This document shows positions 6,618 to 58,242 of a DNA stretch of 64,000 nucleotides, piece by piece. The DNA lies in assembly GCA_963575745.1 (NCBI GenBank), contig CAUYUJ010000265.1, positions 1-64,000 of the forward strand, given 5' to 3'. The position numbers and the translations under genes were made by a program. Each line of letters starts with the position of its first letter. Position 1 is the stretch's first letter. This stretch comes from Prorocentrum cordatum. Lineage: Eukaryota. Below the pieces are notes generated by a model that worked only from the letters and a program-made list of their open reading frames with translations, searched no databases and had not been told where the DNA came from.

Positions 6618-8668
6618 TAGCCTGACGAAAGACCCAACCATACGTAGTTGTGAATAAACGCAATTGTAGATATATTCTTCGGTGGCGCCCCCGGGCCACG
6701 AAACGAGTGAGGGGTGTGCCGAAACGGGGGGGTGGAACCGCATGCGAGCGCAGCCACTGGGGCGCTCGGTGGAGCTCCCTATGGAGCCACGAAACGTGTG
6801 AGGGGTGTGCCAGAATGGGGGGTGGAACCGCATGCGGGCGCAGCCACTGGGGCCTTCGGTGGAGCCCCTATGGGGCCACGAAACTGTGAGGGGTGTGCCA
6901 GAATGGGGGGGGAACCGCATGCGGGCGCAGCCACTGGGGCCTTCGGTGGAGCTCCCTATGGGGCCACGAAACGTGTGAGGGTGTGCCAGAATGGGGGGTG
7001 GAACCGCATGCGGGCGCAGCCACTGGGGCCTTCGGTGGAGCTCCCTATGAGGCCACGAAACGTGTGAGGGGTGTGCCAGACTGGGGGGTGGAACCGCATG
7101 CGGGCGCAGCCACTGGGGCCTTCGGTGGAGCTCCCTATGGGGCCACGAAACGTGTGAGGGGTGTGCCAGAATGGGGGGTGGAACCGCATGCGGGCGCAGC
7201 CACTGGGGCCTTCGGTGGAGCTCCCTATGGGGCCACGAATCGTGTGAGGGGTGTGCGAGAATGGGGGGTGGAACCGCATGCGGGCGCAGCCACTGGGGCC
7301 TTCGGTGGAGCTCCCTATGGGGCCACGAAACGTGTGAGGGGTGTGCCAGAATGGTGGGTGGAACCGCATGTGGGCGCAGCCACTGGGGCCTTCGGTGGAG
7401 CTCCCTATGGGGCCACGAAACGTGTGAGGGGTGTGTGTTGACTGCTGGTCTTAGTGCCAGAATGGGGGGTGGAACCGCAGCGGGCGCAGCCACTGGGGCC
7501 TTCGTGTTGAAGCTCCTATGGGGACCACGAAAAACGTCGTTGAGGGCGTTTTTTGTGCCAGAATGGGGAGTGGAACCGCATGCGGGCGCAGCCATTGGGG
7601 CCTTCGGTGGAGCTCCCTTATGGGGCCACGAAACGTGTGAGGGGTGTGCCAGAATGGGGGGTGGAACCGCATGCGGGCGCAGCCACTGGGGCCTTCGGTG
7701 GAGCTCCCTATGGGGCAACGAAACGTGTGAGGTGTGTGCCAGAATGGGGGGTGGAACCGCATGCGGGCGCAGCCACTGGGGCCTTCGGTGGAGCTCCCTA
7801 TGGGGCCACGAAACGTGTGAGGGGTTTGCCAGAATGAGGGGTGGAACCGCATGCGGGCGCAGCCACTGGGGCCTTCGGTGGAGCTCCCTATGGGGCCACG
7901 AAACGTGTGAGGGGTATGCCAGAATGGGGGGTGGAACCGCTTGCGGGCGCAGCCACTGGGGCCTTCGGTGGAGCTCCCTATGGGGCCACGAAACGTGTGA
8001 GGGGTGTGTGAGGGGGTGGCCAGAATGGTGGGTACCGGGCGCAACGATGCGGGCCAGCCACTGGGGCCTTCACGGTGGAGCTCCCTATGGGGCCACGAAA
8101 CGTGTGAGGGGTGTGCCAGAATGGGGGGTGGAACCGCATGCGGGCCAGCCACTGGGGCCTTCGGGTGGAGCTCCCTATGGGGCCACGAAACGTGTGAGGG
8201 GTGTGCCAGAATGGGGGGTGGAACCGCATGCGGGCGCAGCCACTGGGGCCTTCGGTGGAGCCCCTATGGGGCCACGAAACGTGCGAGGGGTGTGCCAGAA
8301 TGGGGGGTGGAACCGCATGCCAGCGCAGCCACTGGGGCCTTCGGTGGAGCTCCCTATGGGGCCACGAAACGTGTGAGGGGTGTGCCAGAATGGGGGGTGG
8401 AACCGCATGCGGGCGCAGCCACTGGGGCCTTCGGTGGAGCTCCCTATGGGGCCACGAAACGTGTGAGGGGTGTGCCAGAATGGGGGGTGGAACCGCATGC
8501 GGGCGCAGCCACTGGGGCCTTCGGTGGAGCTCCCTATGGGGCCACGAAACGTGTGAGGGGTGTGCCAGAATGGGTGTGGGAGGGGGAGGGGGGGGGAGGA
8601 GGAAGGAAGGCGGAACGCGGGGACCGTCTCTTCAAAACGAGGACCCAACAACACAGGTTGGTTGGGAA
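6618..8668 (+). mobile_element. Array-carrying non-autonomous element, copy 1 (leader, about 21 x 90-bp units, purine tract, hairpin end)
   Basis: Leader TAGCCTGACGAAAGACCCAACCA. End TCTCTTCAAAACGAGGACCCAACAACACAGGTTGGTTGGGAA. Same ends as the copies at 14071 and 37583. Confidence 0.8.
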
Positions 8669-10134
8669 CAGCACATGTCAAGTGCGCAGGCGCACCTGAC
8701 ACATTCTACACGTGCCCCGAACGTGGCGCACGTGGCGCGGCTAGAGTATGCGGCACACCTGGCGCACGCGGAGCACGTGGCGCATCTGGTGCACCAGGCG
8801 TGCCTGGCACGCTCGGGCCACAGGGGTGCCTGGCGCGCGTGGCGCGCCTGGCACGCGTGGCGCACCTCGCCCCAGCGTCGCGCACATGGGGACGGTTTTG
8901 GCGCCCAGTAACTGCACATCCAAAGACGACCGCTGAACATGCTCAGGCTCGGGTGTTACTTATGCGTTGGCACGGCGGGTGGGGGTGAGCTAGACGGCTT
9001 GCTATCCAGGGGGTGTCTTGATCACTGTCCCCAATTGATATACACCACCTGCACCCACCCGGCCGGCGGCCAACCCAGAACCATGACAACCACATGATGG
9101 CCACCACCCCACCATCCCTGTCAAAAAAATACAAAACGAATTCTGCCTCCACATTTGAGCATAAGCGGCCGCCCCACGACCAGTTTGCATTGGGGCGCAC
9201 GTAGAGCACGTGCCGCACCTGGCGCGCCTTGCACGCTTGGGCCTCCAGGGTCTGGCGCATCTGGAACCCGTGGCGTCTGCGGCGTTCTTTCGCGATATGC
9301 TGACTCCCGGGTGTTACGTATGTGTTGGGAAGTGAGCAAGACGGCTTGCAGGCGGGTGGGAAGCTTGACCCCTCCCCCTACCCCCTCCCCCTGGACCTGC
9401 AGGGGGAAGGCCGTGGGTCGTTAGAGAGTCCAAAACGGCCTCTGTGAGAATTCCAAATTAATTGATTTTACTATGGTTTTGGCCACGTGTTGGCATCCTG
9501 CGGGAAGGGCGCAATTGAATACGGCACCTGCTTTGATCGATCTCCTCCAAGATTGTCTCAAGATGGCCCACAACGTCCCCACCGGTACCCCAAGACGGTC
9601 CCAAGAGGCGCCGAGGAGACCCCAAGAGGCCTCCCAAGAGGCCCGCAAGATGCCTCCGAGAGATTCCCAAGAGACCCCCTAGAGGTCTCCCAGGGGCACC
9701 AAAGACGCCCCAAGAGGCCTTGGCGAGAAGGCCTAAGTCATTGATGTTACCTAAATGGTTTGGTCTCACTTTGGCCTCCTGGGGGGGCTAATTGATGAGC
9801 TCCCCTCCTTTAATCGGTCTCCTCCAAGATGGCCCCCAGATGGCCCTTGAGGCTCCCAAGAGTGCCCCAAGAGTCTCCCAAGAGGTGCCCAGAAGGCCCC
9901 CAAGAGGCCCCGAAGCTGCCCCAAAAGATGCCTCCAAGAGGCCCCAAGAGGCTCCCAAGAGACACCCAAGAGGCTCGAGAAGGCTCCTCCAAGGCACCCA
10001 AAGACGCTGCAAGAGGCCCTCAGGGCCGCCACGAGGCCCCCGAAAGTCCCCAAGAGACCTACAAGAAGCACTCAAGAAGCATCCAGAGCGACTCGGAAAA
10101 GCATCCAAGAAACCTCTGGCCTTTCTGCGCGCGC

Positions 10135-14070: not shown

Positions 14071-16595
14071 TAGCCTGACGAAGGACCCAACCATGTGCAG
14101 GTGTGAATACCGCAGTTGACACTACCAATTTCGGTGGGGCTCCCTATAGGGCCAAGAAACGTGTGAAGGGGATGGGTGTGCGGGACGCATGCGGGCGGCA
14201 GCACTGGGGCCTTCGGTGGAGCTCCCTATGGGGCCACGAAACGTGTGAGGGAGTTGACGAAATTGGTGTGGCTGACGCATGCGGGCGCGGGCACTGGGGC
14301 CTTCGGTGGAGCTCCCTATGGGACCACGAAACGTTTGAGGGGTGTGCCGAAATGGGTGTGGCTGACGCATGCGGGCGCGGGCACTGGGGCCTTCGGTGGA
14401 GCTCCCTATGGGGCCACGAAACGTGTGAGGAGTGTGACGAAATGGGTGTGGTTGACGCATGCGGGCGCGGGCACTGGGGCCTTCGGTGGAGCTCCCGATG
14501 GAACCACGAAACGTGTGAGGGGTGTGCCGAAATGGGTGTGGCTGACGCATGCGGGCGCGGGCACTGGGGCCTTCGGTGGAGCTCCCTATGGAGCCACGAA
14601 ACGGGTGAGGGGTGTGCCGAAATGGGTGTGGGTGACGCATGCGGGCGCGGGCACTGGGGCCTTCGGTGGAGCTCCCTATGGAGCCACGAAACGTGTGAGG
14701 GGTGTGCCGAAATGGGTGTGGGTGACGCATGCGGGCGCGGGCACTGGGGCCTTCGGTGGAGCTCCCCATGGAGCCACGAAACGTGTGAGGGGTGTGCCGA
14801 AATGGGTGTGGGTGACGCATGCGGGCGCGGGCACTGGGGCCTTCGGCGGAGCTCCCTATGGAGCCACGAAAAGTGTGAGGGGTGTGCCGAAATGGGTGTG
14901 GGTGACGCATGCGGGCGCGGGCACTGGGGCCTTCGGAGGAGCTCCCTATGGAGCCACGAAGCGTGTGAGGGGTGTGCCGAAAGGGGTGTGGGTGACGCAT
15001 GCGGGCGCGGGCACTGGGGCTTCACGCGACCGTTCTATGGAGCCACGAAAAAACGTGAGGGGGGGTGCAGAATTGTGTGTGGCTGGAATGACGCATGCGG
15101 GGCGCGGGCACTGGAGGGCCTTCGGTGGAGCTCCCTATGGTTTGCACCGGGGGGGAAACGGTGAGGGGTTTGGCCGAATTGGGTGTGGCTGACGCATGCG
15201 GGCGGCAGCACTGGGGCATTCGGTGGAGCTCCCTATGGGGCCACGAAACGCGTGAGGGGTGTGCAGAATTGGATGTGGCTGACGCATGCGGGCGGCAGCG
15301 GTGGGGCCTTCGGTGGAGCTCCCTATGGGGCCACGAAACGTGTGAGGGGTGTGCCGAATTGGGTGTGGCTGGCGCATGCGGGCGGCAGCACTGGGGCCTT
15401 CGGTGGAGCTCCCTATGGGGCCACGAAACGTGACGATGATTTGCCGAAATGGGTGTGGCTTACGCATGCGGGCGCGGGCACTGGGGCCTTCGGTGGAGCT
15501 CCCTATGGAGCCACGAAACGTGTGAGGGGTGTGCCGAAATGGGTGTGGCTGACGCATGCGGGAGCGGGCACTGGGGCCTTCGGTGGAGCTCCCTATGGAG
15601 CAACGAAACGTGTGAGGGGTATGCCGAAATTGGTGTGGGTGACGCATGCGGGCGCGGGCACTGGGGCCTTCGGTGGAGCTCCCTATGGAGCCACGAAACG
15701 TGTGAGGGGTGTGCCGAAATGGGTGTGGGTGACGCATGCGGCCGCGGGCACTGGGGCCTTCGGTGGGGCTCCCTATGGAGCCACGAAACGTGTGAGGGGT
15801 GTGCCGAAATGGGTGTGGGTGACGCATGCGGGCGCGGGCACTGGGGCCTTCGGTGGAGCTCCCTATGGAGCCACGAAACGTGTGAGGGGTGTGCCGAAAT
15901 GTGTGTGGGTGACGCATGCGGGCGCGGGCACTGGGGCCTTCGGTGGAGCTCCCTATGGAGCCACGAAACGTGCGAGGGGTGTGCCGAAAATGGGTGTGGG
16001 TGACGCATGCGGGGCGGGGGGGGGCACTGGGGCCTCGGTGGAGGCTCCCGAGCTCCCTTATGGAGCAACGAAAAACGTGTGAGGTGTGTGCGAATTAGGT
16101 GTGTGGGTGACGCATGCGGGGCTAGGGCACTGGGGCATTCGTTGACGATACCATAAACACGTATATCTAGTATACTTTCGTGTTCATTATAATGGGCCAC
16201 GAAAACGTGTGAGGGATGTCCGAATTGGGTGGGGTGACGCATGCGGGCGCGGGCGGCACTGGGGTTCGGTGGAGCTCTTCTATGGGAGCCACGAAAACGT
16301 CGTGGCTGGTGTGAGGGGCACATGTGCCGAATTGGGTGTGGGTGACGCATGCGGGGGCGGCCACTGGGGCCTTCGGTGGAGCTCCCTATGGAGCCACGAA
16401 ACGGTGTACTGGGTGGGTGAAGAGGAAAGGAGGAGAGGAGGGGAGGAGAGGAGGAGAGGAGAGGAGAGGAGAGGAGAGGAGAGGAGAGGAGAGGAGAGGA
16501 GAGGAGAGGAGAGGAGAGGAGAGGAGAGGAGAGGAGAGGAACGCGGGCCACCGTCTCTTCAAAACGAGGACCCAACACCACAGGATGGTTGGGGG
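14071..16595 (+). mobile_element. Array-carrying element, copy 2 (about 25 x 90-bp units, then (GAGGA)n, then hairpin end)
   Basis: Leader TAGCCTGACGAAGGACCCAACCA. End TCTCTTCAAAACGAGGACCCAACACCACAGGATGGTTGGG. Confidence 0.8.
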
Positions 16596-16676
16596 GAGAA
16601 AAAAAACAACAACAAAAAACAAAACAAAAAAAAAACAAAAAAACAAAAAAAAAAAAAAAAGGAAAAACAAAAAAAA

Positions 16677-16762
<86 letters not shown>

Positions 16763-18968
16763 ACGGCCCGCCCTCCGTCCGTGGAGCTGCTGCGAATTGC
16801 AAGCTCCGGGATCCCGGGATCGCAAGTGCTGGGGGACCCCCCGACGCAACGCCAGGCCCGCCCCACCGACACGCCTGGGAGTGCGAGAGGAGCTATCTGT
16901 GAGGACTAGGACCACGCGCGCCTCGCGCGCGCTCAGGTTCTAGCCCAGCCAAGGGCGCTGTGATGACACAAAGGTGAGGGTTTGCGGGCGACTCGCTGTC
17001 GGAAAGGACTGTGACCGTCTTGGGCCAGTTATGGGATGTTGCAGAGCTTCCATGGACTGGCGTTTGGGCTGTTAGGTACTGTCTTGGGGGGGGGGGGGGG
17101 GGCAGGTGTCTTTGGCCTCAACGGCGCCACCCAGGGTTGCCAGATAGTTGTCACCACACGCAAGTCTTGGCTTGCGGTTCGTCGGGGAGATCGCTGAACC
17201 GCCTTGGGGCATTGACTGGCTTTATGATGGAATGTCGAGGCCGTAGTTTGCTGGTCTTTGGGTGTTGTCACATTTTCTTGGCCTGTCTGGCCGAGCACGT
17301 GCGGGAGGGGCGAGGAACGACGGAGGACGAAAACCTGCCTTGAAAGAGAATACACGCGATGCCACTCCAACTGGTGGAGCACGTGCAGAAGGAACCAGGA
17401 ACGCCAGAGGAAGGAGGGCAAACTGACTTGAGATATATATATATATATATGTGTATGTATATATATATATACATATATATATATATTACACGCGCTCTGT
17501 CACGTCGGGTGGCGGAACACTGGAAGGAAGATCGAGGAAAGACGGAGGAAGGAGGGAACACAGCCTGATTATTGAGTGCATGCGCTGTCACGCCAGCTGG
17601 CGGAGCACGTACAGGACGAAGGAGGGTAGCGGAGTACGGAGAGAAAGCTGCCTTGAAACAGCCTGCACGCGCTGTCCCGCCGGCTGGCGGAGCACGCGCG
17701 AGAGGGACGAGTAAAGACAGAGACACGAGGCAGAAGGATAGAATTATGGTTTCGGAGAGGGACGAGTAAAGACAGAGACACGAGGCAGAAGGATAGAATT
17801 ATGGTTTCGGAGCCCCGTTCGGGGCCTCTTGGGGCTCCTGTGGGCTTCCCGGAGGCCATCTGGGGTCTCTTGGGGGCCTCTTTGTGCACTCTTTTGGGCC
17901 TCTGGGGGGTCTCTTGGGGCCTGTCCTGATGGGCGCCTGTTGGCGGCCTCGGGGGCCACCTGCGAGCAGAGGGCTCCAAATTCCAGCTCGGGCTCCCCTT
18001 CTTGGGCCCATCTTGGGGCCCTCTTGGGCCGTCTTTGGTGCTTCTTGGTCCTTTTGAAGGCCCTCCTGGGCCGTCCTGGGGCACTCTTGAAAGCCTCTTG
18101 GGCAATCTCGGGGCGATTTTGGAGACCTCTGGGGTCGTTTTTGAGCGTGTTGACACCAAAAATGCGCACTGAGTCAAAAAATGCAATTTCCTCAGGGGAT
18201 GGCCGATGTTTGTTTCTCGGGGTCCTCTTGCATGTCCTCTTGGTCGGTCTTGGAGCGTCGTGGACGCCTCCCTTCTGGAGCCGCCTCGACGGCGGTCTGG
18301 GGCGCCTCCTGAGCCGTCCGGAAGCATTGAGAGGCCGAAAAAGATTGAACGCGCAAATCTATCAAAACCTTAAGGGAATAATTGAAATTGGCCTTTCAAA
18401 GCACTCGTCGGGGACACCTTTGAAAATTTTGGGCCGTCTAAGATCCCTGGAGGCCGTCTTCGGGGCAGCTCGGGGCAATCTGGGGCCGTCGGGGTGGCTG
18501 TCTGATCGCTCTGGGACCTGTCTGGCGGCCCCCCAACGGCGGGCCTGGCCCCGAAGACCCCCGGAAAAAGTCGGGAACCCGCCTGGACAGAAAAGTGGTC
18601 TTGAGAGAAGTTTTGAAAAAGAGGGCTGGCCTTGGGTTTGGGGTCTCAGGGGGCCCGCCTCTTGGGGCGTCCTGGCGACGTGTTGGCAGTCCTTGGGACC
18701 GTTTCGGGCTGTGTCGGAACGCTCTTGGGGTCCTTCGAGGCGCGTGCTGGAGGCCTCCTGAGCCGTCTGAAGCCTGGAAGCTGTCTGGTGCGCTCGTTTG
18801 ACGCCCTGGGGCCGTTTCGGAACTCCGGGGGCCGCCCGGGGAGCCCCCGGGGAGAGCGGAGGCCGCTCTGTACAACCGGGCCCCCCCTCTGGTGCCCGGT
18901 CGCAGGGACATCCCTGGTAAGTAGATACGTACATTTGCCGATACGTGCACGCAGTATACGTATACACG

Positions 18969-18999: not shown

Positions 19000-20137
19000 G
19001 TCTATATATATATATATATATACAAGTGGCACGTGTGTGCCCAGGCTCATACAAAAAACTGAAGGGGCGTTTGAAGCAGGAGTGAAATGCAACATCGAAG
19101 TCGCACTCGAGCGCAAGTGGGGTTGACACACCTTGCGATGTGTGTACCAGGACCCCCCAGGAAGCCTCAGGAGGCCCGACTTGGATACCAGAAGAGGCTC
19201 CAGGAGGCCCCAGGATTGTGAGTGTTGTGCGTGTGTGTGTGTGATGTATGCTTTGTGTGGTGCGTGCTTTTTGTGTGTTTTAGGTGTTGTGTGTGTTATG
19301 TTTGTCTAGCGTGTGATGTGTTGGGCGTGATTTGTGTCTCTGTGTGCATGTAGTTCTGAAGCCCCAGGAGGCCCCAGGAAGCCCCAGGCGGCCTCAGGAG
19401 GCCCCAGGAGACCCCAGGAGGCTTCAGGAGGCCCCAAGAGGCTCAGGAGGCCGCAGGAGGCCCCAGGAGGCCCCAGGAGGTTTCAGGAGACCCCCAGGAG
19501 GCTCCGAGGCGGGGTCTGGGGTGCCAGAAGGTTCAGAAAGCTCCAGGAGGCCCCAGGAGGTTCCAGGATGCCCCCAGGAGGCTCCGAGGCGGGGTCTGGG
19601 GCTCGATTTTGGAAGGATTTTTCAAGCGAAACCGCCATTCCCTGAGAATCGGGGTCACAATTATTTGAATTACCATGTGTTTTTGAAGGTTTTATGTTAA
19701 ACTGTTGAAATTCCCATGTGTTTTTGGACCCTGACGTCACGATCTGCGTGAGGGGTGTCACCGATTTTCAGAGTTTCGAGGATGTCCCAAGCGAAACGCC
19801 CAGAAAAATCTCGGACGCGTGCGCATTAATCGCCTCTGAGGTCTACTCCCTCGGAGAGGTGCGTATGATAATATATGTATACATATATACATGTGTACAC
19901 ATACATCCATACCTACCTACCTACCTACCTACCTACCTACCTACCTACATACATACATGCATGCATGCATACATAAATACATACATGCATGCATGCATGC
20001 ATGCATGCATGCACATCTACATACATTTATGCATACATGCATACATGCATACATGCATACATGCGTACATGCATACATGCATACCTACCTACCTACCGAC
20101 CTACCTACCTACCTACCTACCTACCTACCTACCTACG

Positions 20138-20389: not shown

Positions 20390-21927
20390 GTTGCGTTGCT
20401 GTTGTTGCTGTTGTTGTTGTTGTTGTCCCTCCCGCGACCCACCCGCGACCCACCCGCGACCCACCCCACGACCCACCCCGCGACCAACCCCGCGACCCAC
20501 CCCGCGACCCACCCCGCGACCCAACCCGCGATCCACCCACGACCCAACCCCGCGACCCACCCCGCGACCCGCCCGCGACCCAGCCGAGACCCGCCAGCGA
20601 CCCACCCGCGACCCACCCCGCGTTCCACCCGATACCCACCCGCGACCCACCGCGACCACCCGCAACCCACCCTGCGACCACCCGATACCCACCCGCGACC
20701 CACCCGCGACCCACCCGCGACCCACCGCGACCCACCCGCGACCCACCCCGCGACCCACCCGCGACCCATCCGCGACCCACCCGCGACCGATCTACATTTG
20801 TTTGAAGAAAAAATCGGCGCCTGCGGCGGGCTCGTTGTATAAGTTGTGAACTTTGGCGCCTGCAGCGGGCTTCTCCAGAGTCTCGCAGACTGCCGACGTC
20901 CCCATCGCCTCCCCACTCTTATCCGCATCTGCTGAATGCCACGTACATAAATACATACATTTAGACATGCATACTGCACTTACATATGTGCATATGGATG
21001 TACGTATGTGAATGTGTGTATGTGTGTATGTATTCATGTATTCATGTATTCATGTATGTATGTATGTATGTATGTATGCATGCATGTATGTATGTGTGTA
21101 TGTATGTATGTATTACTGTATGCATGTATGTGTATGCATGTATGTGTGTGCATGTGTGTATGTATGCATGTATGTATGCACGCAAACATGCATGTATGTA
21201 TGCATGCGCGTACGTATGCATACACGTGCATACGTACAAACCAATAGACACACATACGAATTTCAGCACCCCGCAGCTAATGAGGGGGGCGCTCGTAGGG
21301 CGGGTCGCGGGTGGGTCGCAGGCGAGTAGCGGGTGGGTCGCAGGTGGGTCGCGGGTGGGTCGCGGGGTGGGTCGCTGGTGGGTTGCAGGCGGGTCGCGGG
21401 TGGGTCGCGGGTGGGTCGCGGGTGGGTCGCGGGTTAGTCGCGCGTGGGTCGCTGGCGGGTCGCGGGTGAGTCGTGGGTGGGTCGCAAATGGGCGGCGGGT
21501 GGGTTGCGAGGTGGGTTGCGGGTGGGTCGCGGGTGGGTCGCGGATTGGTCGCGGGGCGGGTCCCCGGTCGGCCGCCGGTGGGTTGCGGGAGGGTCGCGGG
21601 ATGGGTCGCGCGTGGGTCGCGGGTGGGTCGCGGGTGGGTCGCGGATGGGTTCCGGGCGGGTCGCGGGAAGGTCGCGGGTGGATCGCGGGTGGGTCCCAGG
21701 TGGGTCGCGGGTGGGTCGCGCGTGGGTCGCTGGCGGGTCGCGGGTGGGTCGCTGGCGGGTCTCGGCTGGGTCGCGGGCGGGTCGCGGGGTGGGTCGCGGG
21801 CGGGTCGCGGGTGGGTCGCGGGTGGGTCGCGGGGTGGGTCTCTGGAGTGTCGCGGGTGGGTCGCGGGTGGGCCCCGGGAGGGTCGCGAGCGGGTCGCGCG
21901 TCGGATGGCGGGCGGGACGACAACAAC

Positions 21928-21983
<56 letters not shown>
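20390..21983. repeat. Inverted pair of (CCCGCGACCCA)n / (TGGGTCGCGGG)n arrays with outer (TTG)n / (CAA)n
   Basis: Arrays at 20430-20790 and 21300-21900 are reverse complements of each other. Confidence 0.8.
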
Positions 21984-21985
<2 letters not shown>

Positions 21986-21997
21986 TACTAGCACGTG

Positions 21998-23678: not shown

Positions 23679-23742
<64 letters not shown>

Positions 23743-23766
23743 GCAGCAGCAACAACAACAACAACA
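21998..23766 (+). repeat. Two tandem copies of dispersed repeat module A (about 0.85-0.95 kb), each ending in (CAA)n
   Basis: Start GTTCTCACCAGTGCCAGGG; end CCCAACAATAATTATTCTTTAGAA..TTC(AAC)n. Further copies at 26257-27297 and 33437-34443. Confidence 0.85.
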
Positions 23767-23767
23767 A

Positions 23768-25322: not shown

Positions 25323-25419
<97 letters not shown>

Positions 25420-28550: not shown

Positions 28551-28551
28551 A

Positions 28552-29670: not shown

Positions 29671-30399
29671 AGGACAGGGACCTTCCCTGGGCCCCTGCGC
29701 TCGGACTCCTCCAGCGCTCTCCTCCAGGGGGGGGGGCAGGAATCGTCCCCGGGCCCCGGGGTCCCCCCCCCCCCCCACACACCCACAACAACAACGCCAG
29801 AAATGAATAAAAAACAGAGGAGTCCATCAGGACTCGGACTCCGGTACTGCATCGAAGTGGTGACTTACGTGTGCGCGCGAGAGAAGCGAGGGATTCTATA
29901 GAAACGCTACAGGGATCCTATAGAAACCATACAGGGTTCCCTAAAGAAGCCCGACAGGCATCTTATAGAAACGCTACAGGGATCCTATAGAAACCCTACA
30001 GGCATCCTATAGAAACCCTACAGGCATCCTACAGAAATCCTACAAGGCATCCGATAGAAACCCTATAGGCATCCTGTGGGAACCGTAAAGGGGCCCAACA
30101 AAAACCCTACAAAGATTCTATAGAAACCGTACAGGGATCCGGTAGAAACCGTACAGGGATCCGATAGAAACCCGACAGGGATCCGATGTATGAGAAACCT
30201 GCAGGGGGATCCGGTAGAAAACGTACAGCGACCCGATAAAGTAAAAACCCTAAAAAGGGATCCTATAAAAAAAGCCCTACAGGGATCACATGTAAAAAGA
30301 ACCTACAGGGATTCGAAAGAAACCATACAGGAACCTGTAGAGACCCTACAGCGATCTGATAGGAACCCTACAGGGATCCTATTTTTTCTGCAAAAATTA

Positions 30400-31136
30400 T
30401 CCCAGTGCCCCCTACCTAGGAGTTGGAGCCCCTAGGAAAGCAGCATTAATAGTACCAGTAAAGCTAAGCTAAAGCTAAGCTAAAGCTAAGCTAAAGCTAA
30501 GCTAAAGCTAAGCTAAAGCTAAGCTAAAGTTAAGCTAAAGCTAAGCTACAGCTAAGCTAAAGTTCAGCTAAAGCTAAGTTAAAGCTAAGCTAACGCTAAG
30601 CTAAAGCTAAGCTAAAGCTAAGCTAACGTTACGCCGAAGCTAAGCTAAAGCTAAGATAAAGCTAAGCTAAAGCTAAGCTAAAGCTAAGCTAAAGTTAAGC
30701 TAACGATAAGATGACGTTAAGCTAAAACTAAGCTAAGCTAAGCTAAAGCTAAGCTAAAGCTAAGCTAAAGCTAAACTAAAGCTAAGCTAAAGCTAAGCTA
30801 AAGCTAAGCTAAAGCTAAGCTAAAGCTAAGCTAGAGCTAAGCTAAAGCTAAGCTAAAGCTAAGCTAAAGCTAAGCTAAAGCTAAGCAAAGCTAAGCTAGA
30901 GCTAAGCTAAAGCTAAAGATAAGCTAAAGCTAAGCTAAAGCTAAGCTAAAGCTAAGCTAAAGCTAAGCTAAAGCTAAGCTGGCTAAAGCTAAAGCTAAAG
31001 CCAAAGCTAAGGCTCCCAGGGGACTGGGGGAACCGCGGGGCGGATGCCAGGGGAACCGCCCAGGGCGGGGAACATTGCCCGGCCCTTTAAGCTTACCGAG
31101 TAAGAACCCTTCTAGGCAGAGCCTAGGTAGGAAAAC
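30400..31136 (+). mobile_element. Element carrying an (AAGCTAAGCTA)n 11-bp array, inserted in a GGATCC-rich satellite
   Basis: Subterminal inverted repeat CCTACCTAGG (30411) / CCTAGGTAGG (31122). End AGAACCCTT-CTAGGC-AGA-GCCTAG-GTAGGAAAA. Confidence 0.65.
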
Positions 31137-36622: not shown

Positions 36623-37582
36623 CTGCAGCGCCGATGGCGGCAGCGGCGCCGGCGGAGTTGGCGGCGGTGACGTGGACGCCCACGGCGACATCGACGGCGG
36701 CGGCAGCGGCGGCACTGGCGTATCACAGATAACAGTTGATTCGTGTCCAAAACTGCCATGTTCTTCCATTGGTGGGCAACCCCGTACTCATGCTCCTTCT
36801 CCTCCTCATCCGAGCGAGCGTCCGCCTTCTTTTCGCTTCTCCTCCCCAACCTCCTCCTCCACCTCCTCCTCCTCCTCCCTCCTCCTCCTCCTCCTCCTCC
36901 TCCTCCTTGTCCTTCTCCGTCTCTTACTCTGCCTGTCCGCATGCGCTTCAAAATTCGCCACTGTGCCCAATGGCAGTAGAATGCCAAATACTGCCTAGTA
37001 GGTTTTCTAAACACACGAACCAAGGGGCCACCCTCCACTCTGCACGCCTTCCTGCAGGCATCCCCCCCTCTGAGCCGCCCGATGCGTCCCCAGTGTTCGC
37101 CAGGGCTCTCCAAGGTTTCCCAGACGGTCCAGGGAGGCAGCCAAGACCGCCCAGACGTCCTCACACGACCTGAAGAGGCGCCCAGAAGCCCCCCAAAAAG
37201 CCCACGAGGCGCCAAAGGGGGCCCAAGACGCTTCAAAGACACCAAGGAGAAGGCTCGAGGGGCCCCCAGGAGTGCCAACATCATTCAAAAACCTACCCCC
37301 GCCATTGCAGATATATTTGCTTGCGGCGAAGCGCCTGGGCTGCCTTGCGGAGGATGCGGAGCTCGAGCGCCGATGTAAGCAACCAGACCTCGGAAGGCTA
37401 CGATTCATCCGACGCAATCAACCCGCCACAGACGCCGACTTTGTGCTAACAGCGTGGGTGTGGAGCGTCGGCGGGGCGCGAGGCTTGAAACCCATTGTCA
37501 AGGATGGCCCTACACGACCGTAATGTGGTTAGCGTGCGGGCCTGGGGAGCCAGTCCAAGAGGCTAAAACTAGTAAAACCAAT

Positions 37583-38437
37583 TTGCCTGGCGAAAGACCC
37601 AACCATATGCAGCTGTGAATAACGCAATTGTGAGTATCGTCTTCAGTGGAGCTCCCTGTGAGGGCACGAACGGTGTGAGGGGTGTGCCGAAGTGAGCGCG
37701 GTGAGCGCATGCGAACGCAGCCACTGGGGCCTTCGGTGGAGTTCCCTATGAAGCCACGAAACGTGTAAGGGTGCGCCGAAGTGGGCACGGTGGGCGCATG
37801 CGAACGCAGCCACTGAGGCCTTCGGTGGAGCTCCCTATGCGGCCGCGAAATGTGTGAGGGGTGCGCCGAAGTGGGCGCGGTGGGCGCATGCGAACGCAGC
37901 CACTGGGGCATTCGGTGGAACTCCTTATGGGGCCACGAAACGAGTGCGGGGTGTGCCGACATGGGTGCGGTGGGCGCATGCGAACGCTGACACAGGGACC
38001 TTCGGTGGGGATCCCCATGGGGCCACGTGAGGGGTGTGCCGAAATAGGTGCGGTGGGCGCATGCGAACGCAGCCACTGTGACATTCGGTGGAGCTCCCTA
38101 CGGGGCCGCGGAATGTGTGAAGGGTGTGCCGAAATGGTCCTGGTGGGCGCATGCGAACGCAGCCACTGGGGCATTCGGTGGAACTCCCTATGGTGCCACG
38201 AAACGTGTGAGGGTTGTGCCGAAATCGGCGCGGTGGGCGCATGCGAACGGAGCCACTGGGGCCTTCGGCGGAGCTCCGTATGGGGCCGCGAAACGTGTGG
38301 GGGGTGTGCCGAAATCGGTAACTGGTGCAGAGGGCAAAGGCAGGGATGGGAGAAGGGAAAAGAGGGGCAGAGAGAAGGAAGGACGCGGGGCGCTGTCTCT
38401 TCAAAACGAGGACCCAACAATCCAGGATTGTTGAGAA
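37583..38437 (+). mobile_element. Array-carrying element, copy 3 (about 7 x 91-bp diverged units)
   Basis: Leader TTGCCTGGCGAAAGACCCAACCA. End TCTCTTCAAAACGAGGACCCAACAATCCAGGATTGTTGAGAA. Confidence 0.78.
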
Positions 38438-42759: not shown

Positions 42760-44120
42760 GATGCTCTTTCTGGCCAGCACCACGGGCCCCAGACTAAGGT
42801 GGGCCGGGCACTCCCGTATCAGCCGGAAGTGGCAGAAGCACCGCAGCCCGGAGTGCGCCAGCATCTTCGCGCACGCGCGCGCCTTCACACCTCCGGCGGT
42901 GAGCCGGGCGGCCGCCGGCGGCGGGCCGCTTGGGGCGGCGGGCCCCTGGGGCGCAGGCGTCGGCACAGCGGGCGGCGGGCCGCTTGGGGTGGCGGGCCGC
43001 TGGGGGGCGGGCGGCGGCACGGCGGGCGGCGGGCCGATCGGGGCGGCGGCCCGCTCAGGCGCGGGCGGCGGCACAGCCGGCGGCGGGCCGCTGGGGAGGC
43101 GGGGTGCGCCGTTCTCCTGGGCCGCAGCCTGCAGCCGCGCTGGCGACGGCGGGCTGCTCGAGGAGCTGGACTCGTCGCCAGACTCGTCGCCGGAGTCGTC
43201 GCTGTCGGACCCGTCGTGGCCAGACCCGTCGCCAGAGTCGTTGCCAGACTCGTCGCTGGCCTCGAGCGGGCCCAGAAGGCCCTGCACGTGCGTCCCGGCC
43301 ACCACACCAGGGGCGCCCGCGGGCGCGACCGCCGCGGCCTTGGGCGGGGGCACGGACTCCTGGGCCTCGCCACCGCCGCCCTGGGGCTTCGCGCCCGACT
43401 CGACGGCAGCCGCAGCCGCCGGGTCCACGGCAGCGGTCGACGGCGGCCTCGTCGATTGGGGCCTGGCCACGGAGGGCCAGCCGTCCGCGGCGGGCCCGGC
43501 GCCCAGGGCAGCGAGCTCCGCCACCAACTGCCGCTCCTGCTCCTTCAGCGCCAGGGCGGCGCCGAAGTCCTCGGCGTCCACGGCCGCGACCTTCTCCTGG
43601 CGCACCTCCGCCAGCCGAGCCTCCAGGCGCCGCCTCTGCTCGGCTCCTTCGCTGGCGGACGCAGGCATCCGAGCCCCGCTGGGCGGCGAGCCGGCGGGGC
43701 CAGCGGGCGGCGCAGTCACGAGCGCGGCGCCGACGGTGGCAGCATCCGCGCCGGATCCGTTGGCGGGGCCGCACAGCCTCGGTGAGCCTCGCGCCACGGC
43801 CTCCCCGCCAAGGGGGGCGGCCGCGGAGGGCTTAGCGCCAGGCCCGTCGCCAGAGTCGCGCGGGCTCGGCGGCCTCTGCACCGCGGCCTCCCCGCGGCCA
43901 AGGGCGGCCACAGGCGCCGCCTCGGCCACTGGTCTGGGCACCAGTGCAGAACACCGAACGCCAGGGTCTTTGTGATACCCTTGGGCCTTGCCGTCGCACA
44001 CATACCATGTGTCGTCTGGCCCTGCCTCTGCGGGGGTCGTAGCAAATGCGCCAGCCCATCGGGCCAGAGGCGTATCATGCTTGGGCGGCGCGGGGACAGA
44101 AAAGCGCTTTGCCCTAGCTG
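42760..44120 (-). CDS. Hypothetical protein, apparently one long exon: UVR-like motif, acidic Ser/Asp tract, Pro-rich repeats and C-terminal Cys/His cluster (CAKMLAHSGLRCFCHFRLIRECP)
   Basis: Non-repetitive part of ORF 42034..44358. RLEARLAEVRQEKVAAVDAEDFGAALALKEQERQL (about 43524-43634) resembles the UvrB/UvrC (UVR) motif. Boundaries are approximate. Confidence 0.55.
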
Positions 44121-44150
44121 TTGCTAACTGTTCCTGGCAACTGCTGGATC

Positions 44151-44200
<50 letters not shown>

Positions 44201-46006
44201 ATTACCTTGAGGCACGTTGGAGCCCCTCTTGGGGCCTCTTGGGCGGCCCAACGTGCCCGAGGCGTGCTAGATAGTGGACCAGCAAGGGGGCGGCAAGCGC
44301 CTTCCCTTGGGATCCCTCGAGGTCTCGTGGTGCCCTTGGAGGGGTCTTGCTCCTGCAACGGATCGGTCGCCTGGCTACCAGCTATCTTAGGGCTCTCTTG
44401 GATCTTGGACCGCCTTGATTCTGGATTGAATCGGTTCGACTTTATTTAACTTTCGGGGGCCTCCCCTGATGTTTGATTCCGGCAGGGTATACTCTCCAAG
44501 CGGCCCCTTGATTGGTAATTTCTTGTTTGACCCTTGACTAATGTTCTCGGCCTCCGTCAATCGAGAGCCTTGTGCTAACGGGAATCTGGAGGTGCAAGCA
44601 ACTTTCACTTCCGTCTCCTCGGCTATAGGCCGCCCTGCCGGGCCATGTATAGGATGCCGGCCTGGAGACGCGATGAGTACCTAGGCTGGCTTCTTTCTAA
44701 AGATTACCACTTCCTCCACTCTCGGCGGAAGGCGCCTAGGACAGTGGTACTCTGAAGTCAGCAACAGCAGAAGAACGCCTTGGAAACGACTTGGTGCTGT
44801 CTTGGATACCATCTGGGGCCCTCAGCTGGGGCCATCTTGAGGCCAGCTCGGGCGATTTGGGCCCTCTTCAAGCTTCTCTGGGCTTCTGGGCAATATTGGA
44901 AGCTCCTGGGGCGATAAATGTCATAAGAATAAAAATTACAGTGGAGGCCCTGCGCTAAACCATCACGAAGCCTGCTGAGATCAAACTGGCGCAATCTTAG
45001 GGCATCGTGCTCCGTCTTGGGAACGAGTCTGCCTGTCTTGAGTGCTTCTTGGAGCCCTTTGGGACTATGATGGTGGCCTCTCGACGACCCATCTGGCCAC
45101 ATTGAGCATTCTAGAGGCATCTGGGACCGACAAAGCCGACAACTTGGCCGAGCCAGGGCGTCGGTGGGACTCCTGGGCCGCGGTCATCGATGCCCCAAAA
45201 GGCTCCTCCTAATTGTATTGATCGCTTTGCTCAGGAAGCGGATCGCTCATGTATCGCTTCGCTCATCCTGTAGCCAGACAGTGTGGTTGCACTGCGTCTG
45301 CGCAAGAGAGCTGCCGCGCCCGAAGGTCGGCCGGAGAAACGAAGGGCCAACTTGGCCAAAGAGCGGCTCAAGCGAAGGGCGAGAGCGGGATTAGTGTATG
45401 TGGCAGGCCTCTTCGGGGAAAACTCTGCCTCCAAGATTGCCGCACGGACGTTCCTAAGAAGCCCCAAGATGCCACCAGAGTGCTCCAAGCGGTCCCAAGA
45501 TTGCCCCAGTACCCAGTATGGCTCAGAATGGCCTAAGGCAGCCAAGTAGGCTGAAAACATAAATCAACATGGCCGGAGACGCCCCACTCAGAGGTTCTCA
45601 AGGAGAACCAACACCATACAGGCTGATATCCTGTCAACATCCCCGAGGAAGAACTACCAATGTGTTGGCATCCTGGCCTGTGCGGGCTCCAGTGGGACTC
45701 TCAACTTCAAGAAGGCCACAAGAGTCCAAATTTTCCACGGGAGCCCAAGAGGGACCCGAAGAGGGCCCCAAGAAGCCCCAAGAGGTCCCAAGTTGGGCTC
45801 CGTTTTGTGCCCATGTGCCCAGGCGTCCAAGAGGCTCCTAAGAGGTTGCCAAGACAGCTCCAAGATGGCCAGGGGCAACTTGGCCTCATGGGCTCTGCTG
45901 GGGCGGCCTCGCGACCGTCGTTTGGGGGTGTCCCGGTCCCTCCCTCAGAGAACGCCATGGGCGGGCGGCGAACGCGGAGCGTGTCGAATAGTAGCTCTCC
46001 AGACTG

Positions 46007-54589: not shown

Positions 54590-55451
54590 TTTTAGGGCTA
54601 GAGGACTATCGGGCTATTGGGCTATAGGGCGATGGGGCTATGGGGGTATCGAGCTATGGAACTATGGGGCCACAGGGCCATAGGGGTCTATAGGGCTATA
54701 GGGCTATAGGGCTATTGGCTCATAGGGCAACAGGGCTGTAAGGCTATGGGGCTCTTGGGCTCTGAGGCTATGGGGCTATAGGGCCATAGAGCCATAGGGC
54801 TATCAGTCTACAGGGCTATGGGGCTATAGGGCTGTAGCACCATAGGGCTATAGGGATAGAGGGCTATGGAGTTAAATGTCTATACGGCTATAGGCATATA
54901 TAGAGCTACAGGGCTATAGGGCTGTAGGGTTATAGGGCTACAGGGCTGTAAGGCTGTCAGGCTATCAGGCTATAGAGCTATAGGGCTATAGGGATATCGG
55001 GCTATAGGGCTATTGGGCTATTGGGCTATTAGGCTATAGTGCCATAGGGTTATAGGGCTATGGGGCTACAGGGATATTGGGCTAGAGGGCTAGAGGGCTG
55101 TAGGGATATCAGGCTATAGGGCTATAGGGCTATAGGGCTATAGAGCTGTATGGCTCTAGGGCGAGAGGGCTTTAGGGCTATAAGACTATAAGGCCATAGG
55201 GCCATAGGCTATAGGGCTATTGAACTATGGGGTTGTAGGGCTATTGGGCTATAGGGATATAGGGCTATTGGGCTATGGGGCTATAGGGCTACAAGGCTAT
55301 AGGGCTATAGGGCTACAAGGTTATAGGGCTATAGGGCGATAGGGCTATAAGGCACCTGGGCACCCGGGTGGGCCGCGGAAATCGGCGGCAAAGCTCACCT
55401 GACCATGTGAATCCGCTAGGACCCCTGCAGAGGCAAGCTCTGATTACGAAC
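54590..55451 (+). mobile_element. Element carrying a (GGGCTATAG)n 9-bp array
   Basis: Array at 54593-55350. End AGGACCCCTG-CAGAG-GCAAG-CTCTG-ATTACGAA hairpin. Left boundary uncertain. Confidence 0.5.
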
Positions 55452-56935: not shown

Positions 56936-58242
56936 TTTTCAGTGCGGGAGTTAAGGCGCGCCGCAAGGTTTGCGGGCGACCCGCGACAGCGACCCACTGG
57001 ACCCCCAGCATCCCTCGACAACGGCAACAGTTTTGCAGATCGCAGCCGTACAGGGATGGCGATGTCTAGTCTGAGTCTGGGTGGTGCCTCACTCCGCTGA
57101 ACCCCCTAGCAGGCCTCGAAGCTGGCGACAGTGTCGCAGATCGCAGCCCCACAGAGATGGCGAGGTCTAGTCTGAGTCTGCGTAGCACGCCACTCCGCTG
57201 GACCCCCCAGCAGCCCTCGAAAGTGGCGACAATTTCGCAGATCGCAGCCCCACAGAGATGGCGAGGTCTAATCTGAGTCTGCGTAGCACGTCACTCCGCT
57301 GGACCCCCCAGAAACCCTCGAAAGTGGCGACAATTTCGCAGATCGCAGCCCCACAGAGATGGCGAGGTCCAATGTGAGTCTGCGTAGCATGTCACTCCGC
57401 TGGACCCCCCAGAAGCCATCGAAAGTGGCGACAGTGTCGCAGATCGCAGCCCCGCAGAGATGGCGAGGTCTAATATGAGTCTGCATAGCATGTCACTCCG
57501 CTGGACCCCCCAGCAGCCCTCGAAAGTGGCAACAGTTTCGCAGATCGCTCCGCTTGACCCCCTAGCAGCCATCGAAAGTGGCGACAAATTCGCAGATCGC
57601 AGCCCCACAGGGATGGCGAGGTCTAGTCTACTCCATTTGACCCCCCAGCAGCAATCGAAAGTGGCAACAGTTTCGCAGATCGCAGCCCCACAGAGATTGC
57701 GAGGTCTAATCTGAGTCTGCGTAGCACGTCACTCCGCTGGACCCCCCCAGCAGCCATCGGAAGTGGCGACAGTGTCGCAGATCGCAGCCCCACAGAGATG
57801 GCGAGGTCTAATCTGAGTCTGCGTAGCAAATCACTCCGCTGGCCCCCCCAGAAGCCATCGGAAGTGGCGACGGTGTTGCAGATCGTAGCCTCACAGAGAT
57901 GGCGAGGTCTAGTCTGAGTCTGGGTGGTGCCTCACTCCGCTGGACACCCCAGAAGCCCTCGAAAGTGGCGACAATTTCGCAGATCGCAGCCCCACAGAGA
58001 TGGCGAGGTCTAATCTGAGTCTGCGTAGCACGTCACTCCGCTGGACCCCCCAGCAGCCCTCAGAAGTGGCGACAAATTCGCAGACCGCAGCCCCCCCAGG
58101 GATGGCCAGGTAGGAGGCAAGCTGGCACGCAGGAAGGAGCAAGGTGACAGGGAGGAGAGAAGGGGAGAGAGGGCGGGAGGAAAGGGGTGTGCGACCGCAG
58201 TGCTCTATTCAAAACGAGGATCCAACGCAGTAGGGCTGGGAG
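56936..58242 (+). mobile_element. Related element carrying an unrelated tandem array of about 101 bp units (GAAAGTGGCGACAATTTCGCAGATCGCAGCCCCACAGAGATGGCGAGG...)
   Basis: About 11 units at 57000-58100, then a purine tract, then CTCTATTCAAAACGAGGATCCAAC...GGCTGGGA. Left boundary approximate. Confidence 0.65.

What the first reader, a model, noticed from the sequence alone, without database searches (positions are those of the whole stretch)
6618..58242. Family of non-autonomous elements with shared ends carrying interchangeable tandem-repeat cargo
Seen: six loci share the layout tandem array, short spacer (purine-rich in four), RGRAYCC motif, hairpin or G-rich end (ends at about 8668, 16595, 31136, 38437, 55451, 58242). 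The arrays are unrelated (90, about 101, 11 and 9 bp units). Four loci share TCT.TTCAAAACGAGGA.CCAAC almost exactly. No coding capacity or clear TSD; several sit next to A/T runs. Established: Helentron-derived HINE/DINE-1-type elements and other HUH rolling-circle transposons carry internal tandem arrays and end hairpins without TSDs. Inference: a rolling-circle-like mobile system that seeds and spreads satellites through the introns of this genome.
Basis: partly seen in the sequence, partly recalled or inferred. Interest (0 to 1): 0.8.

Follow-up and report, generated by a model that had tools for sequence, protein, structure and literature searches.

The report
Satellite-carrying Helentron-like mobile elements
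Several tandem-repeat arrays in this repeat-rich eukaryotic window are the cargo of small non-coding mobile elements built like the rolling-circle HINE/DINE-1 elements of animals, a known kind of satellite spreader seen here in what is probably a marine protist.

Summary
Three loci (6617-8666, 14071-16593, 37582-38435) are copies of one non-coding element. They share both ends, the same 90-bp satellite and unrelated flanks. A fourth (array 56997-58111, end 58240) shares only the conserved core at the hairpin end and carries an unrelated 101-bp array. Locus 30397-31131 has the same architecture with unrelated sequence. Locus 54593-55451 is doubtful.

Eight distinct metagenome loci carry the same end module. 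Four public runs show depth jumping from about 0 to 10^3-10^5 at the borders of the 37.6-38.4 kb copy.

Read on the minus strand, the layout matches HINE/DINE-1 (Helentron/Helitron2-type) elements:
- T-run flank, then a 9-nt 5' subTIR that forms a hairpin with a nested inverted repeat
- conserved core, microsatellite and tandem array
- 3' subTIR about 16 nt from the end, followed by T
- no target-site duplication

Not met or not found:
- no 3' palindrome in the main family
- no clean empty site
- no Rep/helicase partner in any DNA I could reach
- no evidence that the sites are introns

Verdict: a new member of a known kind. Mobility is well supported. The rolling-circle mechanism is inferred from structure (confidence about 0.6). 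The main rival is a LINE-tail retroposon.

The parts
6617..8666 (-). Family-A element, copy 1 (2.05 kb), whole element
   Evidence: Homology to copies 2 and 3 starts at 6607-6612 and stops at the hairpin; flanks are unrelated. Borders read.
6617..6692 (-). Copy 1 right flank (RF; 3' end on the minus strand). The 3' subTIR is CCCAACCAT on + at 6633-6641.
   Evidence: Alignment of 6 RF modules; IR search; flank table. No significant hairpin (z -0.25).
6693..8574 (.). Copy 1 cargo: 90-bp satellite, about 21 units, with 180/270-bp higher-order periods
   Evidence: TRF. Monomers are 92-95% alike within the array and about 80% alike to copy 2.
8575..8611 (-). Copy 1 purine-rich spacer (degenerate microsatellite)
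   Evidence: Sequence read.
8612..8666 (-). Copy 1 left flank (LF). Conserved core 8612-8649. Hairpin CCCAAC...GTTGGG 8644-8666, which is the 5' subTIR plus nested IR on the minus strand.
   Evidence: DNA fold z -2.47.
14071..16593 (-). Family-A element, copy 2 (2.5 kb). RF 14071-14129, 90-bp array about 14130-16403, (GAGGA)n 16430-16540, core 16538-16576, hairpin 16571-16593.
   Evidence: Perfect 9/9 subTIR. Hairpin z -1.33.
16599..16761 (.). A-run of 163 nt directly after copy 2 (T-run on the minus strand)
   Evidence: TRF; sequence.
37582..38435 (-). Family-A element, copy 3 (0.85 kb). RF 37582-37640, 90-bp array 37641-38315, purine-rich spacer 38316-38379, core 38380-38418, hairpin 38413-38435.
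   Evidence: Hairpin z -3.11. In 4 of 4 runs depth is 0 in bin 37472-37555 and 4,228-37,030 in the next bin. It falls from 4,995-28,228 (bin 38396-38479) to 10-235 after it.
56997..58240 (-). Partial relative. 101-bp array 56997-58111, purine-rich spacer 58112-58190, core TTCAAAACGAGGATCCAAC 58208-58226, degenerate end to 58240. The other end was not identified.
   Evidence: No hairpin (z +0.33). No RF-like module found.
30397..31131 (-). Analogous element with unrelated sequence. 10-bp subTIRs at 30411-30420 and 31122-31131, hairpin 31112-31126, 11-bp array 30459-31011. It lies between A-runs inside a 22-bp host array.
   Evidence: 10 of 200 shuffles reach the IR length; z -2.14.
54593..55451 (.). 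Doubtful sixth locus: 8/9-bp array 54593-55353 plus a tail with AGGACCC at 55418 and a 5-bp stem at 55428-55442
   Evidence: Hairpin not significant (z -0.10). No subTIR: 95 of 200 shuffles do as well.

Best explanation
The loci are non-autonomous DNA transposons of the Helentron/Helitron2 (HLE2) type. They are HINE/DINE-1-like elements lying on the minus strand of the window.

On that strand each element has, in order:
- a start directly after a host T-run, with a 9-nt subTIR (CCCAACCAT-like) that pairs with a nested inverted repeat to form a hairpin
- a roughly 40-nt conserved core
- a pyrimidine microsatellite
- a tandem-repeat cargo
- a roughly 60-75-nt right flank holding the inverted copy of the subTIR about 16 nt before the terminus ...CAGGCTA(A), which is followed by host T

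Inferred mechanism: a Rep/helicase encoded elsewhere in the genome nicks at the hairpin-bearing 5' end, peels off one strand up to the 3' signal, and inserts the copy between two T's without a target-site duplication. Read-through of the 3' signal (end bypass) or recombination would put new sequence behind the same 5' module. That explains why the same core is found with the 90-bp satellite, a 101-bp array, a 15-bp array, unique DNA or nothing. Arrays then expand and homogenise locally.

Shown here: dispersal, defined borders, T/T flanks, no TSD, module order, exchangeable cargo.
Inferred only: the enzyme, the strand, the rolling-circle step and the way arrays are acquired.
For: 1. One family with defined ends. 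Copies 1, 2 and 3 align from RF to hairpin at about 80% identity, and their flanks are unrelated. The core of 26 or more nt is 100% identical between copies, although the satellites are only about 80% alike.
2. Four runs (one named organism, three marine metagenomes) give about 0 depth on both flanks and 3x10^3 to 4.7x10^5 across 37556-38479. Both end modules have similar depth.
3. The metagenome scan gave 19 loci. Nine of them (8 distinct, since L013 and L019 are the same locus) carry spacer, core, hairpin and A-run. The other 10 are bare 19-mer matches.
4. Cargo in the 12 distinct loci that carry the core:
   - 7 hold the 90-bp satellite family (in L016 seen by eye only)
   - 2 hold unrelated arrays (101 bp, 15 bp)
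   - 2 hold no array (L005, a 112-bp element with both ends, and L013)
   - 1 is ambiguous (L017)

5. On the minus strand, TT directly precedes CCCAAC in 8 of 10 distinct family-A copies. T follows ...CAGGCTA(A)/...CAGGCAAA in 6 of 6 right flanks.
6. No TSD in 6 of 6 complete copies.
7. The subTIR matches in 8/9, 9/9, 7/9, 9/9 and 7/9 positions in the 5 complete copies. In L005 an A-to-C change is mirrored at both ends.
8. The hairpin has z between -1.3 and -3.1 in 5 of 5 family-A copies folded.
9. The order subTIR+IR, microsatellite, variable segment, tandem repeats, about 60-nt RF with subTIR is what PMC7492417 describes for oyster Cg_HINE and PMC4067079 for DINE-1/HINE, including related flanks with unrelated arrays (passages). 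T-T insertion and short TIRs define HLE2 (PMC11417382 and PMC5148889, passages).
Against: - No Rep/helicase or any transposase domain was found: 0 credible Pfam hits in 76 window ORFs and in 21 ORFs of the metagenome loci.
- The long ORF beside L017 has relatives without a Pfam domain, so it looks like a host gene of unknown function and not a RepHel.
- The main family has no palindrome after the 3' subTIR (z about 0 in 3 of 3 copies), although HINE descriptions include one.
- The subTIR is only 9 nt. In single copies it is not clearly above chance: 11, 52 and 157 of 200 shuffles do as well.
- The hairpin stem is nearly invariant, so it gives no covariation support.
- There is no clean empty site. 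The paralogous host repeat around copy 1 is only roughly collinear, with 11-19 nt unaccounted for.
- The loci at 58.2 kb and L009 share only one end.
- Read on the plus strand, the A-run after the hairpin (2-6 A, and 163 A after copy 2) looks like a retroposon tail.
Confidence: 0.6

Rival explanations
1. A LINE-dependent retroposon on the plus strand (SINE-like). The conserved core plus hairpin would be the 3' tail recognised by a partner LINE's reverse transcriptase. The A-run would be the poly(A) tail. Different bodies (90-bp, 101-bp or 15-bp arrays, or unique DNA) would share that tail, as SINE families share a LINE tail.
For: - A-runs follow the hairpin in most copies: 2-6 A, and 163 A after copy 2.
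- The loose-end consensus in two runs continues ...GGTTGGGAAAAAA.
- Two loci share only this end.
- If the host is a diplonemid (a weak hint), LINE-type genes are abundant in the one published diplonemid genome (PMC10161547, passages).
Against: - No TSD in 6 of 6 complete copies; only A-rich ambiguity at copy 2.
- All 6 observed opposite ends are full length, with none truncated.
- The opposite end carries an inverted copy of the terminal 9-mer that co-varies in L005.
- No tRNA, 5S or 7SL-like head: ARAGORN 0, Rfam 0.
- No RT domain in any ORF examined.
- A conserved A-T(-T) precedes the plus-strand start in 6 of 6 copies, which a retroposon does not predict.
Confidence: 0.17
2. A non-autonomous DNA element moved by some other enzyme not yet linked to it. 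Candidates are another HUH single-strand transposase, a tyrosine recombinase, or a cut-and-paste enzyme with atypical ends. The enzyme would use the three CCCAAC motifs (direct at both ends, inverted at the hairpin) as recognition sites.
For: - The ends are asymmetric, there is no TSD, and GACCCAAC occurs directly at both ends and once inverted.
- The 3' palindrome expected of HINEs is missing.
- No RepHel was found.
Against: - Every structural feature seen is already covered by published HLE2/HINE variation. This includes Helitron2 groups that lack a 3' hairpin (PMC5148889, passages).
- The outermost termini are not inverted repeats, and there is no TA, TTAA or other fixed TSD, so cut-and-paste families do not fit.
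Confidence: 0.13
3. Not a transposon. Satellite arrays with a conserved junction would be spread by segmental duplication, or by reintegration of extrachromosomal satellite circles.
For: - The window is full of segmental and dispersed repeats, for example 22337-22916 and 23140-23719 at 95%.
- De novo satellite insertions without a known transposase are reported in Chlamydomonas (MSAT-11_cRei; bioRxiv 10.1101/2022.06.16.496473, passage).
Against: - Homology stops at the same two module borders in all copies, and the flanks differ.
- An array-less 112-bp copy keeps both ends (L005).
- The flanks show a T/T preference.
- The end modules are better conserved than the satellites.
Confidence: 0.07

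Closest known systems
Cg_HINE elements of the Pacific oyster (Helentron-derived non-autonomous elements carrying satDNA-like arrays; PMC7492417, passages read)
   Same: - The module order is the same: 5' subTIR, complementary IR, microsatellite, variable segment, tandem-repeat array in a fixed orientation, and a right flank of about 60 nt with a 3' subTIR.
- Related flanks occur with related arrays, unrelated arrays or two arrays.
- There is no TSD.
   Different: - The subTIR is 9 nt here, against 11-12.
- The main family has no palindrome after the 3' subTIR.
- The 3' subTIR lies about 16 nt from the end.
- The host is not an animal. It is GC-rich and probably a marine protist.
- No autonomous partner was seen.
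DINE-1 / mite and mosquito HINEs and their Helentron partners (PMC4067079, passages read)
   Same: - SubTIRs, an IR nested in the 5' subTIR, a microsatellite and central repeats.
- Insertion in TT, with T-strings of variable length at the borders.
- Non-coding.
   Different: - The published HINEs have the 3' subTIR 38-60 nt from the end and a 5-10-bp palindrome 8-35 nt from the end. Here it is about 16 nt from the end and there is no palindrome.
- There is no sequence similarity.
- The link to a Helentron (Rep/helicase plus endonuclease) is untested.
Helitron2 elements of fungi and green algae (PMC5148889, passages read)
   Same: - Asymmetric terminal inverted repeats, with the 3' copy internal to the terminus.
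- A 5' hairpin.
- Some groups lack a 3' hairpin.
- Insertion after a T-run.
   Different: - Those elements are 5-11 kb and coding.
- Their ATIRs are 12-16 bp.
- Tandem-array cargo is not their hallmark.
Canonical Helitrons (HLE1)
   Same: No TSD, a hairpin near one end and non-autonomous derivatives.
   Different: There is no 5' TC or 3' CTRR, no A|T insertion, and the hairpin is not 10-12 nt before a CTRR end. The elements are not members.

Membership tests
HLE2 non-autonomous elements (HINE / DINE-1-like) | Short (sub)terminal inverted repeats, the 5' one at the terminus and the 3' one internal | tested here: met
   The 9-nt repeat matches in 8/9, 9/9, 7/9, 9/9 and 7/9 positions in the 5 complete family-A copies, with a mirrored A-to-C change in L005. 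The 31.1 kb locus has a 10-nt repeat. It is shorter than the published 11-15 nt, and single copies are near chance level.
HLE2 non-autonomous elements (HINE / DINE-1-like) | Inverted repeat complementary to the 5' subTIR (5' hairpin) | tested here: met
   The hairpin has z -2.47, -1.33, -3.11, -1.95 and -1.73 in 5 of 5 family-A copies folded, and z -2.14 at 31.1 kb. It is absent at 58.2 kb and 55.4 kb.
HLE2 non-autonomous elements (HINE / DINE-1-like) | Microsatellite in the left flank, before the central tandem repeats | tested here: met
   (GAGGA)n x23 in copy 2. A degenerate purine-rich stretch is present in copies 1 and 3, at 58.2 kb, and in L002, L006, L009, L016 and L018.
HLE2 non-autonomous elements (HINE / DINE-1-like) | Palindrome or stem-loop after the 3' subTIR | tested here: not met
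   Right flanks of copies 1-3 fold no better than shuffles (z -0.25, +0.13, +0.03). At 31.1 kb a palindrome overlaps the subTIR but is weak (z -1.12).
HLE2 non-autonomous elements (HINE / DINE-1-like) | Insertion between T and T, without target-site duplication | tested here: inconclusive
   The flank composition fits: TT before the element in 8 of 10 copies and T after it in 6 of 6. No TSD in 6 of 6. No true empty site was available; the paralogous host repeats are only roughly collinear.
HLE2 non-autonomous elements (HINE / DINE-1-like) | Autonomous partner with the same termini encoding Rep/helicase (with or without endonuclease) | not testable with these tools
   No whole genome is held. 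There were 0 relevant Pfam hits in 76 + 21 ORFs. The metagenome records cannot be searched further, and the viral collection gave 0 hits.
Canonical Helitron (HLE1) | 5' TC, 3' CTRR with a hairpin 10-12 nt upstream, A|T insertion | tested here: not met
   The termini are TTAGCC.../...GTTGGG on +, or CCCAAC.../...GGCTAA on -.
SINE / LINE-tail retroposon | Variable TSDs, poly(A) or simple-repeat tail, frequent 5' truncation, small-RNA-derived head | tested here: not met
   TSD in 0 of 6. Truncated heads in 0 of 6. ARAGORN 0 and Rfam 0. Only the A-run fits.
MITE / foldback (cut-and-paste) | Inverted repeats at the very termini, plus a fixed TSD | tested here: not met
   The outermost 14-16 nt of the two ends are not inverted copies of each other, and there is no fixed TSD.
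Retrozyme-like tandem ribozyme repeats | Self-cleaving ribozyme in each monomer | tested here: not met
   Rfam found 0 matches at gathering score in the whole window. A satellite dimer folds no better than shuffles (z -0.40 and +1.30).

The most novel reading that the evidence does not exclude
The family may not be Helitron-related at all. It could be the non-autonomous form of an undescribed single-strand (HUH-like or other) transposition system of a marine protist lineage. That system would use three copies of a CCCAAC motif (direct at both ends, inverted in the hairpin) and a 40-nt invariant core as its origin. It would be so successful that its end modules reach 10^3-10^4-fold summed depth in ocean metagenomes. 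The missing 3' palindrome, the short subTIR and the lack of any RepHel in reach are all compatible with this reading.
Probability: 0.12. Interest if true: 0.7.

Novelty: new member of a known kind. Interest (0 to 1): 0.42.

Why it matters
Satellite-carrying HINE-type elements have been worked out mainly in animals (flies, mites, mosquitoes, bivalves). Here the same architecture appears in a GC-rich, extremely repeat-rich eukaryote. Relatives of the family are very abundant in marine metagenomes.

One neighbouring gene points, weakly, to diplonemids. [quoted passage not shown]

If confirmed, the family would help in three ways:
- It would explain part of the dispersed 90-bp satellite load.
- It would give a ready marker (the 19-nt core) for tracing these organisms' repeats in metagenomes.
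- It would offer a case of one 5' module paired with several cargos, which is what end-bypass capture by rolling-circle transposons predicts.

It does not change the known picture of how such elements work.

Tried and rejected
- Whole genome: none is held. Genome-wide copy collection, empty sites and a partner search were therefore impossible.
- Earlier-findings look-ups: nothing on this genome or on this sequence. A word search returned two HINE-type notes from other genomes, which I did not use.
- Sequencing runs: no run holds the window's unique flanks (best share of sampled words 0.07). No presence/absence test was possible, and the many 'joints' inside the array are repeat artefacts.
- Viral contigs: 0 hits for either end motif.
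- Rfam and tRNA scans: 0 hits.
- Satellite RNA structure: not better than shuffles. Aligning six monomer consensus units showed no clear compensatory pattern by eye.
- Pfam: nothing credible in 76 window ORFs, only two sub-threshold low-complexity hits. Nothing relevant in 21 ORFs of metagenome loci.
- The 803-aa window ORF 42034-44445 has no relatives.
- The L017 ORF has relatives without a Pfam domain, so it is not the partner.
- Searching the records behind the metagenome loci for Helitron_like_N was not possible.
- Second end module for the 58.2 kb locus and for L009: not found.
The other hits were palindromic units of the GGATCC-containing satellites (31.3-32.4 kb), plus single hits at 29765, 30373 and 60689 that I did not pursue.
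- Literature: searches found no paper describing this family, or HINE-type elements in haptophytes or diplonemids. I did not open the supplements of PMC10161547 (repeat sections), and they may bear on this.

Full report
**What is in the window.** The window is eukaryotic, about 57% G+C, and extremely rich in tandem and dispersed repeats. TRF gave 217 rows. No tRNA gene and no Rfam family was found. None of 76 longer, non-low-complexity ORFs had a credible Pfam domain. I therefore cannot say that any of the loci lies in an intron. No whole genome is held.

**Checking the observation.** At all four places it follows a tandem array and a purine-rich spacer. The three exact sites belong to one family: all three arrays are the same 90-bp satellite.

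In a self-comparison of the window, the copies align from this module to the hairpin at about 80% identity and not beyond it. My borders are 6617-8666, 14071-16593 and 37582-38435.

The locus ending at 58240 carries an unrelated 101-bp array. It shares only the core (18 of 19 nt), has no hairpin (z +0.33), and has no recognisable second end.

The locus 30397-31131 shares no sequence with the others but has the same plan:
- A-run flanks
- a 10-nt inverted repeat at 30411-30420 and 31122-31131
- a hairpin at the array-distal end (z -2.14)
- an 11-bp array

It interrupts a 22-bp host array.

The locus at 54593-55451 has only the short motif and a 5-bp stem that is no better than chance. RGRAYCC is frequent in this DNA: 71 on the + strand, in 2.9% of 35-nt windows. 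Motif plus perfect hairpin turns up about 3 times per strand in shuffles. The motif cannot by itself link the last two loci to the family.

**Evidence from elsewhere.** One scan of metagenome contigs with the 19-nt core returned 19 loci. Ten are bare chance-like matches. Nine (8 distinct, because L013 and L019 are the same locus) carry the whole module: purine-rich spacer, GGAACGCGGGGCGCTGTCTC, the core, a CCCAAC...GTTGGG hairpin and then A's.

What lies upstream of that module varies:
- 90-bp-family satellites in 77-, 89- and 120-bp variants in L002, L006 and L018, and by eye in L016
- a 15-bp array in L009
- unique DNA in L013
- poly-G next to an ORF in L017
- nothing in L005, where the two end modules are separated by only about 50 nt, giving a 112-bp element

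L006 holds two elements head to tail, 51 nt apart.

I laid four public runs on 36800-39300. Both flanks had about 0 depth. Depth across 37556-38479 was 3x10^3 to 4.7x10^5, with the two end modules at similar depth and the satellite about ten-fold higher. The loose-end consensus continued ...CCACAGGATGGTTGGGAAAAAA. These are short contigs summed over organisms, so they show abundance and borders and not copy number. No run held the unique flanks, so presence/absence polymorphism could not be tested.

**Anatomy and strand.** On the minus strand every family-A copy reads as follows:
- host T-run
- CCCAACCAT-like 9-mer, then a 5-7-nt loop, then TGTTGGG (hairpin z -1.3 to -3.1 in 5 of 5 copies folded)
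- an invariant core
- a pyrimidine microsatellite
- the tandem array
- a right flank in which ATGGTTGGG, the inverted copy of the first 9-mer, lies about 16 nt before the terminus ...CAGGCTA(A)

TT precedes the element in 8 of 10 distinct copies. The exceptions are copy 2, where extra C's intervene after a T-run, and L016. T follows the element in 6 of 6 right flanks.

The two 9-mers match in 8/9, 9/9, 7/9, 9/9 and 7/9 positions in the five complete copies. In L005 an A-to-C change is present at both ends.

No target-site duplication adjoins the ends in 6 of 6 complete copies. Only A-rich ambiguity remains at copy 2 and at 31.1 kb.

This order is what the oyster Cg_HINE paper and the DINE-1/HINE paper describe: subTIR with nested IR, microsatellite, variable stretch, tandem repeats in fixed orientation, and a short right flank with the second subTIR. 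Those papers also describe T-rich/TT insertion, variable T-strings at the borders, and related flanks carrying unrelated arrays (PMC7492417 and PMC4067079, passages). T-T insertion and short inverted repeats are the stated hallmarks of HLE2 elements (PMC11417382 and PMC5148889, passages). On the plus strand the same ends would give T|A flanks, which fit no described Helitron group.

**What does not fit.**
- The main family has no palindrome after the 3' subTIR (z about 0 in 3 of 3 copies).
- Its subTIR is shorter than the published 11-15 nt. Judged copy by copy it is not above chance.
- The hairpin stem is nearly invariant, so it offers no covariation.
- The host repeat around copy 1 continues on both sides, but with 11-19 nt unaccounted for, so it is not a clean empty site.
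- No Rep, helicase, endonuclease or reverse transcriptase domain was found in any ORF I could reach.
- The ORF beside L017 has relatives without a Pfam domain.

**Mechanism.** The best reading (about 0.6) is a non-autonomous Helentron/Helitron2-type element mobilised in trans by a Rep/helicase. It would copy from the hairpin-bearing 5' end to the 3' signal and insert between T's without duplication. Sharing of the 5' module alone (58.2 kb, L009, L013) is what end bypass or recombination would give. Higher identity within arrays (85-95%) than between copies (about 80%) points to local expansion and homogenisation after insertion. Dispersal, borders, flank preference and exchangeable cargo are shown. 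The enzyme, the strand and the rolling-circle step are inferred.

The main rival (about 0.17) is a plus-strand retroposon whose core plus hairpin is a LINE tail and whose A-run is a poly(A) tail. It fits the A-runs and the one-end sharing. It fails on TSDs (0 of 6), truncation (0 of 6), the inverted 9-mer and the conserved bases before the start.

An unknown DNA-transposition system (about 0.13) and non-transpositional spread (about 0.07) remain possible.

**Host.** A methyltransferase-like ORF lies next to the array-less element in L005. It is 77% identical to a protein that one source labels as from a diplonemid. The one published diplonemid genome is described as 52% repeats, with long repetitive regions between gene clusters and some Helitron-like ORFs (PMC10161547, passages). 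This is a hint about the lineage of that contig and not an identification of the window's organism.

**Verdict.** This is a real, abundant, non-coding mobile family that carries satellites. It is built like HINE/DINE-1 elements and is a new member of a known kind. The strand is probably reversed, the six loci are over-unified, and the intron claim and the rolling-circle claim are unproven.

Noticed in passing
window 24111-25311, 29007-29671, 41196-42078: A second composite dispersed repeat. It has arrays of a 21-bp unit, which shares GGGGCCACGAA with the 90-bp satellite, followed by a tail of about 480 bp made of degenerate 41-bp units. Copies are 70-88% alike.
   Followed up: partly
window 20427-20788 and 21298-21898: Two arrays of the same 11-bp unit in opposite orientation flank a (TATG/CATG)n stretch. 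The arrangement looks like a foldback.
   Followed up: no
window 21917-34442: Several 0.3-1 kb blocks recur at 87-95% identity, for example 22337-22916 with 23140-23719, and 26678-27264 with 33856-34442. This is a segmentally repeated region that also contains the 31.1 kb element.
   Followed up: no
window 6088-6575 and 8682-9170: Copy 1 sits inside another repeat family, 78% alike over about 500 nt. The motif CCACCATCCCTGTCAAAAAAA recurs at 6508, 6594 and 9107.
   Followed up: partly
L006:258-1490 and 1538 onward: Two family-A elements lie head to tail, 51 nt apart, on one metagenome contig.
   Followed up: no
L005:20-131 and ORF 212-1123 (-): An array-less 112-bp element lies just beyond the stop of a methyltransferase-like ORF, on the 3' UTR side. 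The ORF's relatives at 71-86% identity are widespread in marine data, and one is labelled as from a diplonemid.
   Followed up: partly
window 58518-58617: An assembly gap of 100 N lies about 280 nt downstream of the 58.2 kb locus.
   Followed up: no
window 1074-1137, 9824-9974, 17821-17922, 19361-19585, 38480-38700: Short arrays of 10-11-bp units of the GGGGCCTCTTG / CCCAAGAGGCC type recur on both strands. The stretch 38732-39151 also has raised depth in the four runs.
   Followed up: no
window 16141-16190: A roughly 50-nt AT-rich insert interrupts the 90-bp array of copy 2.
   Followed up: no
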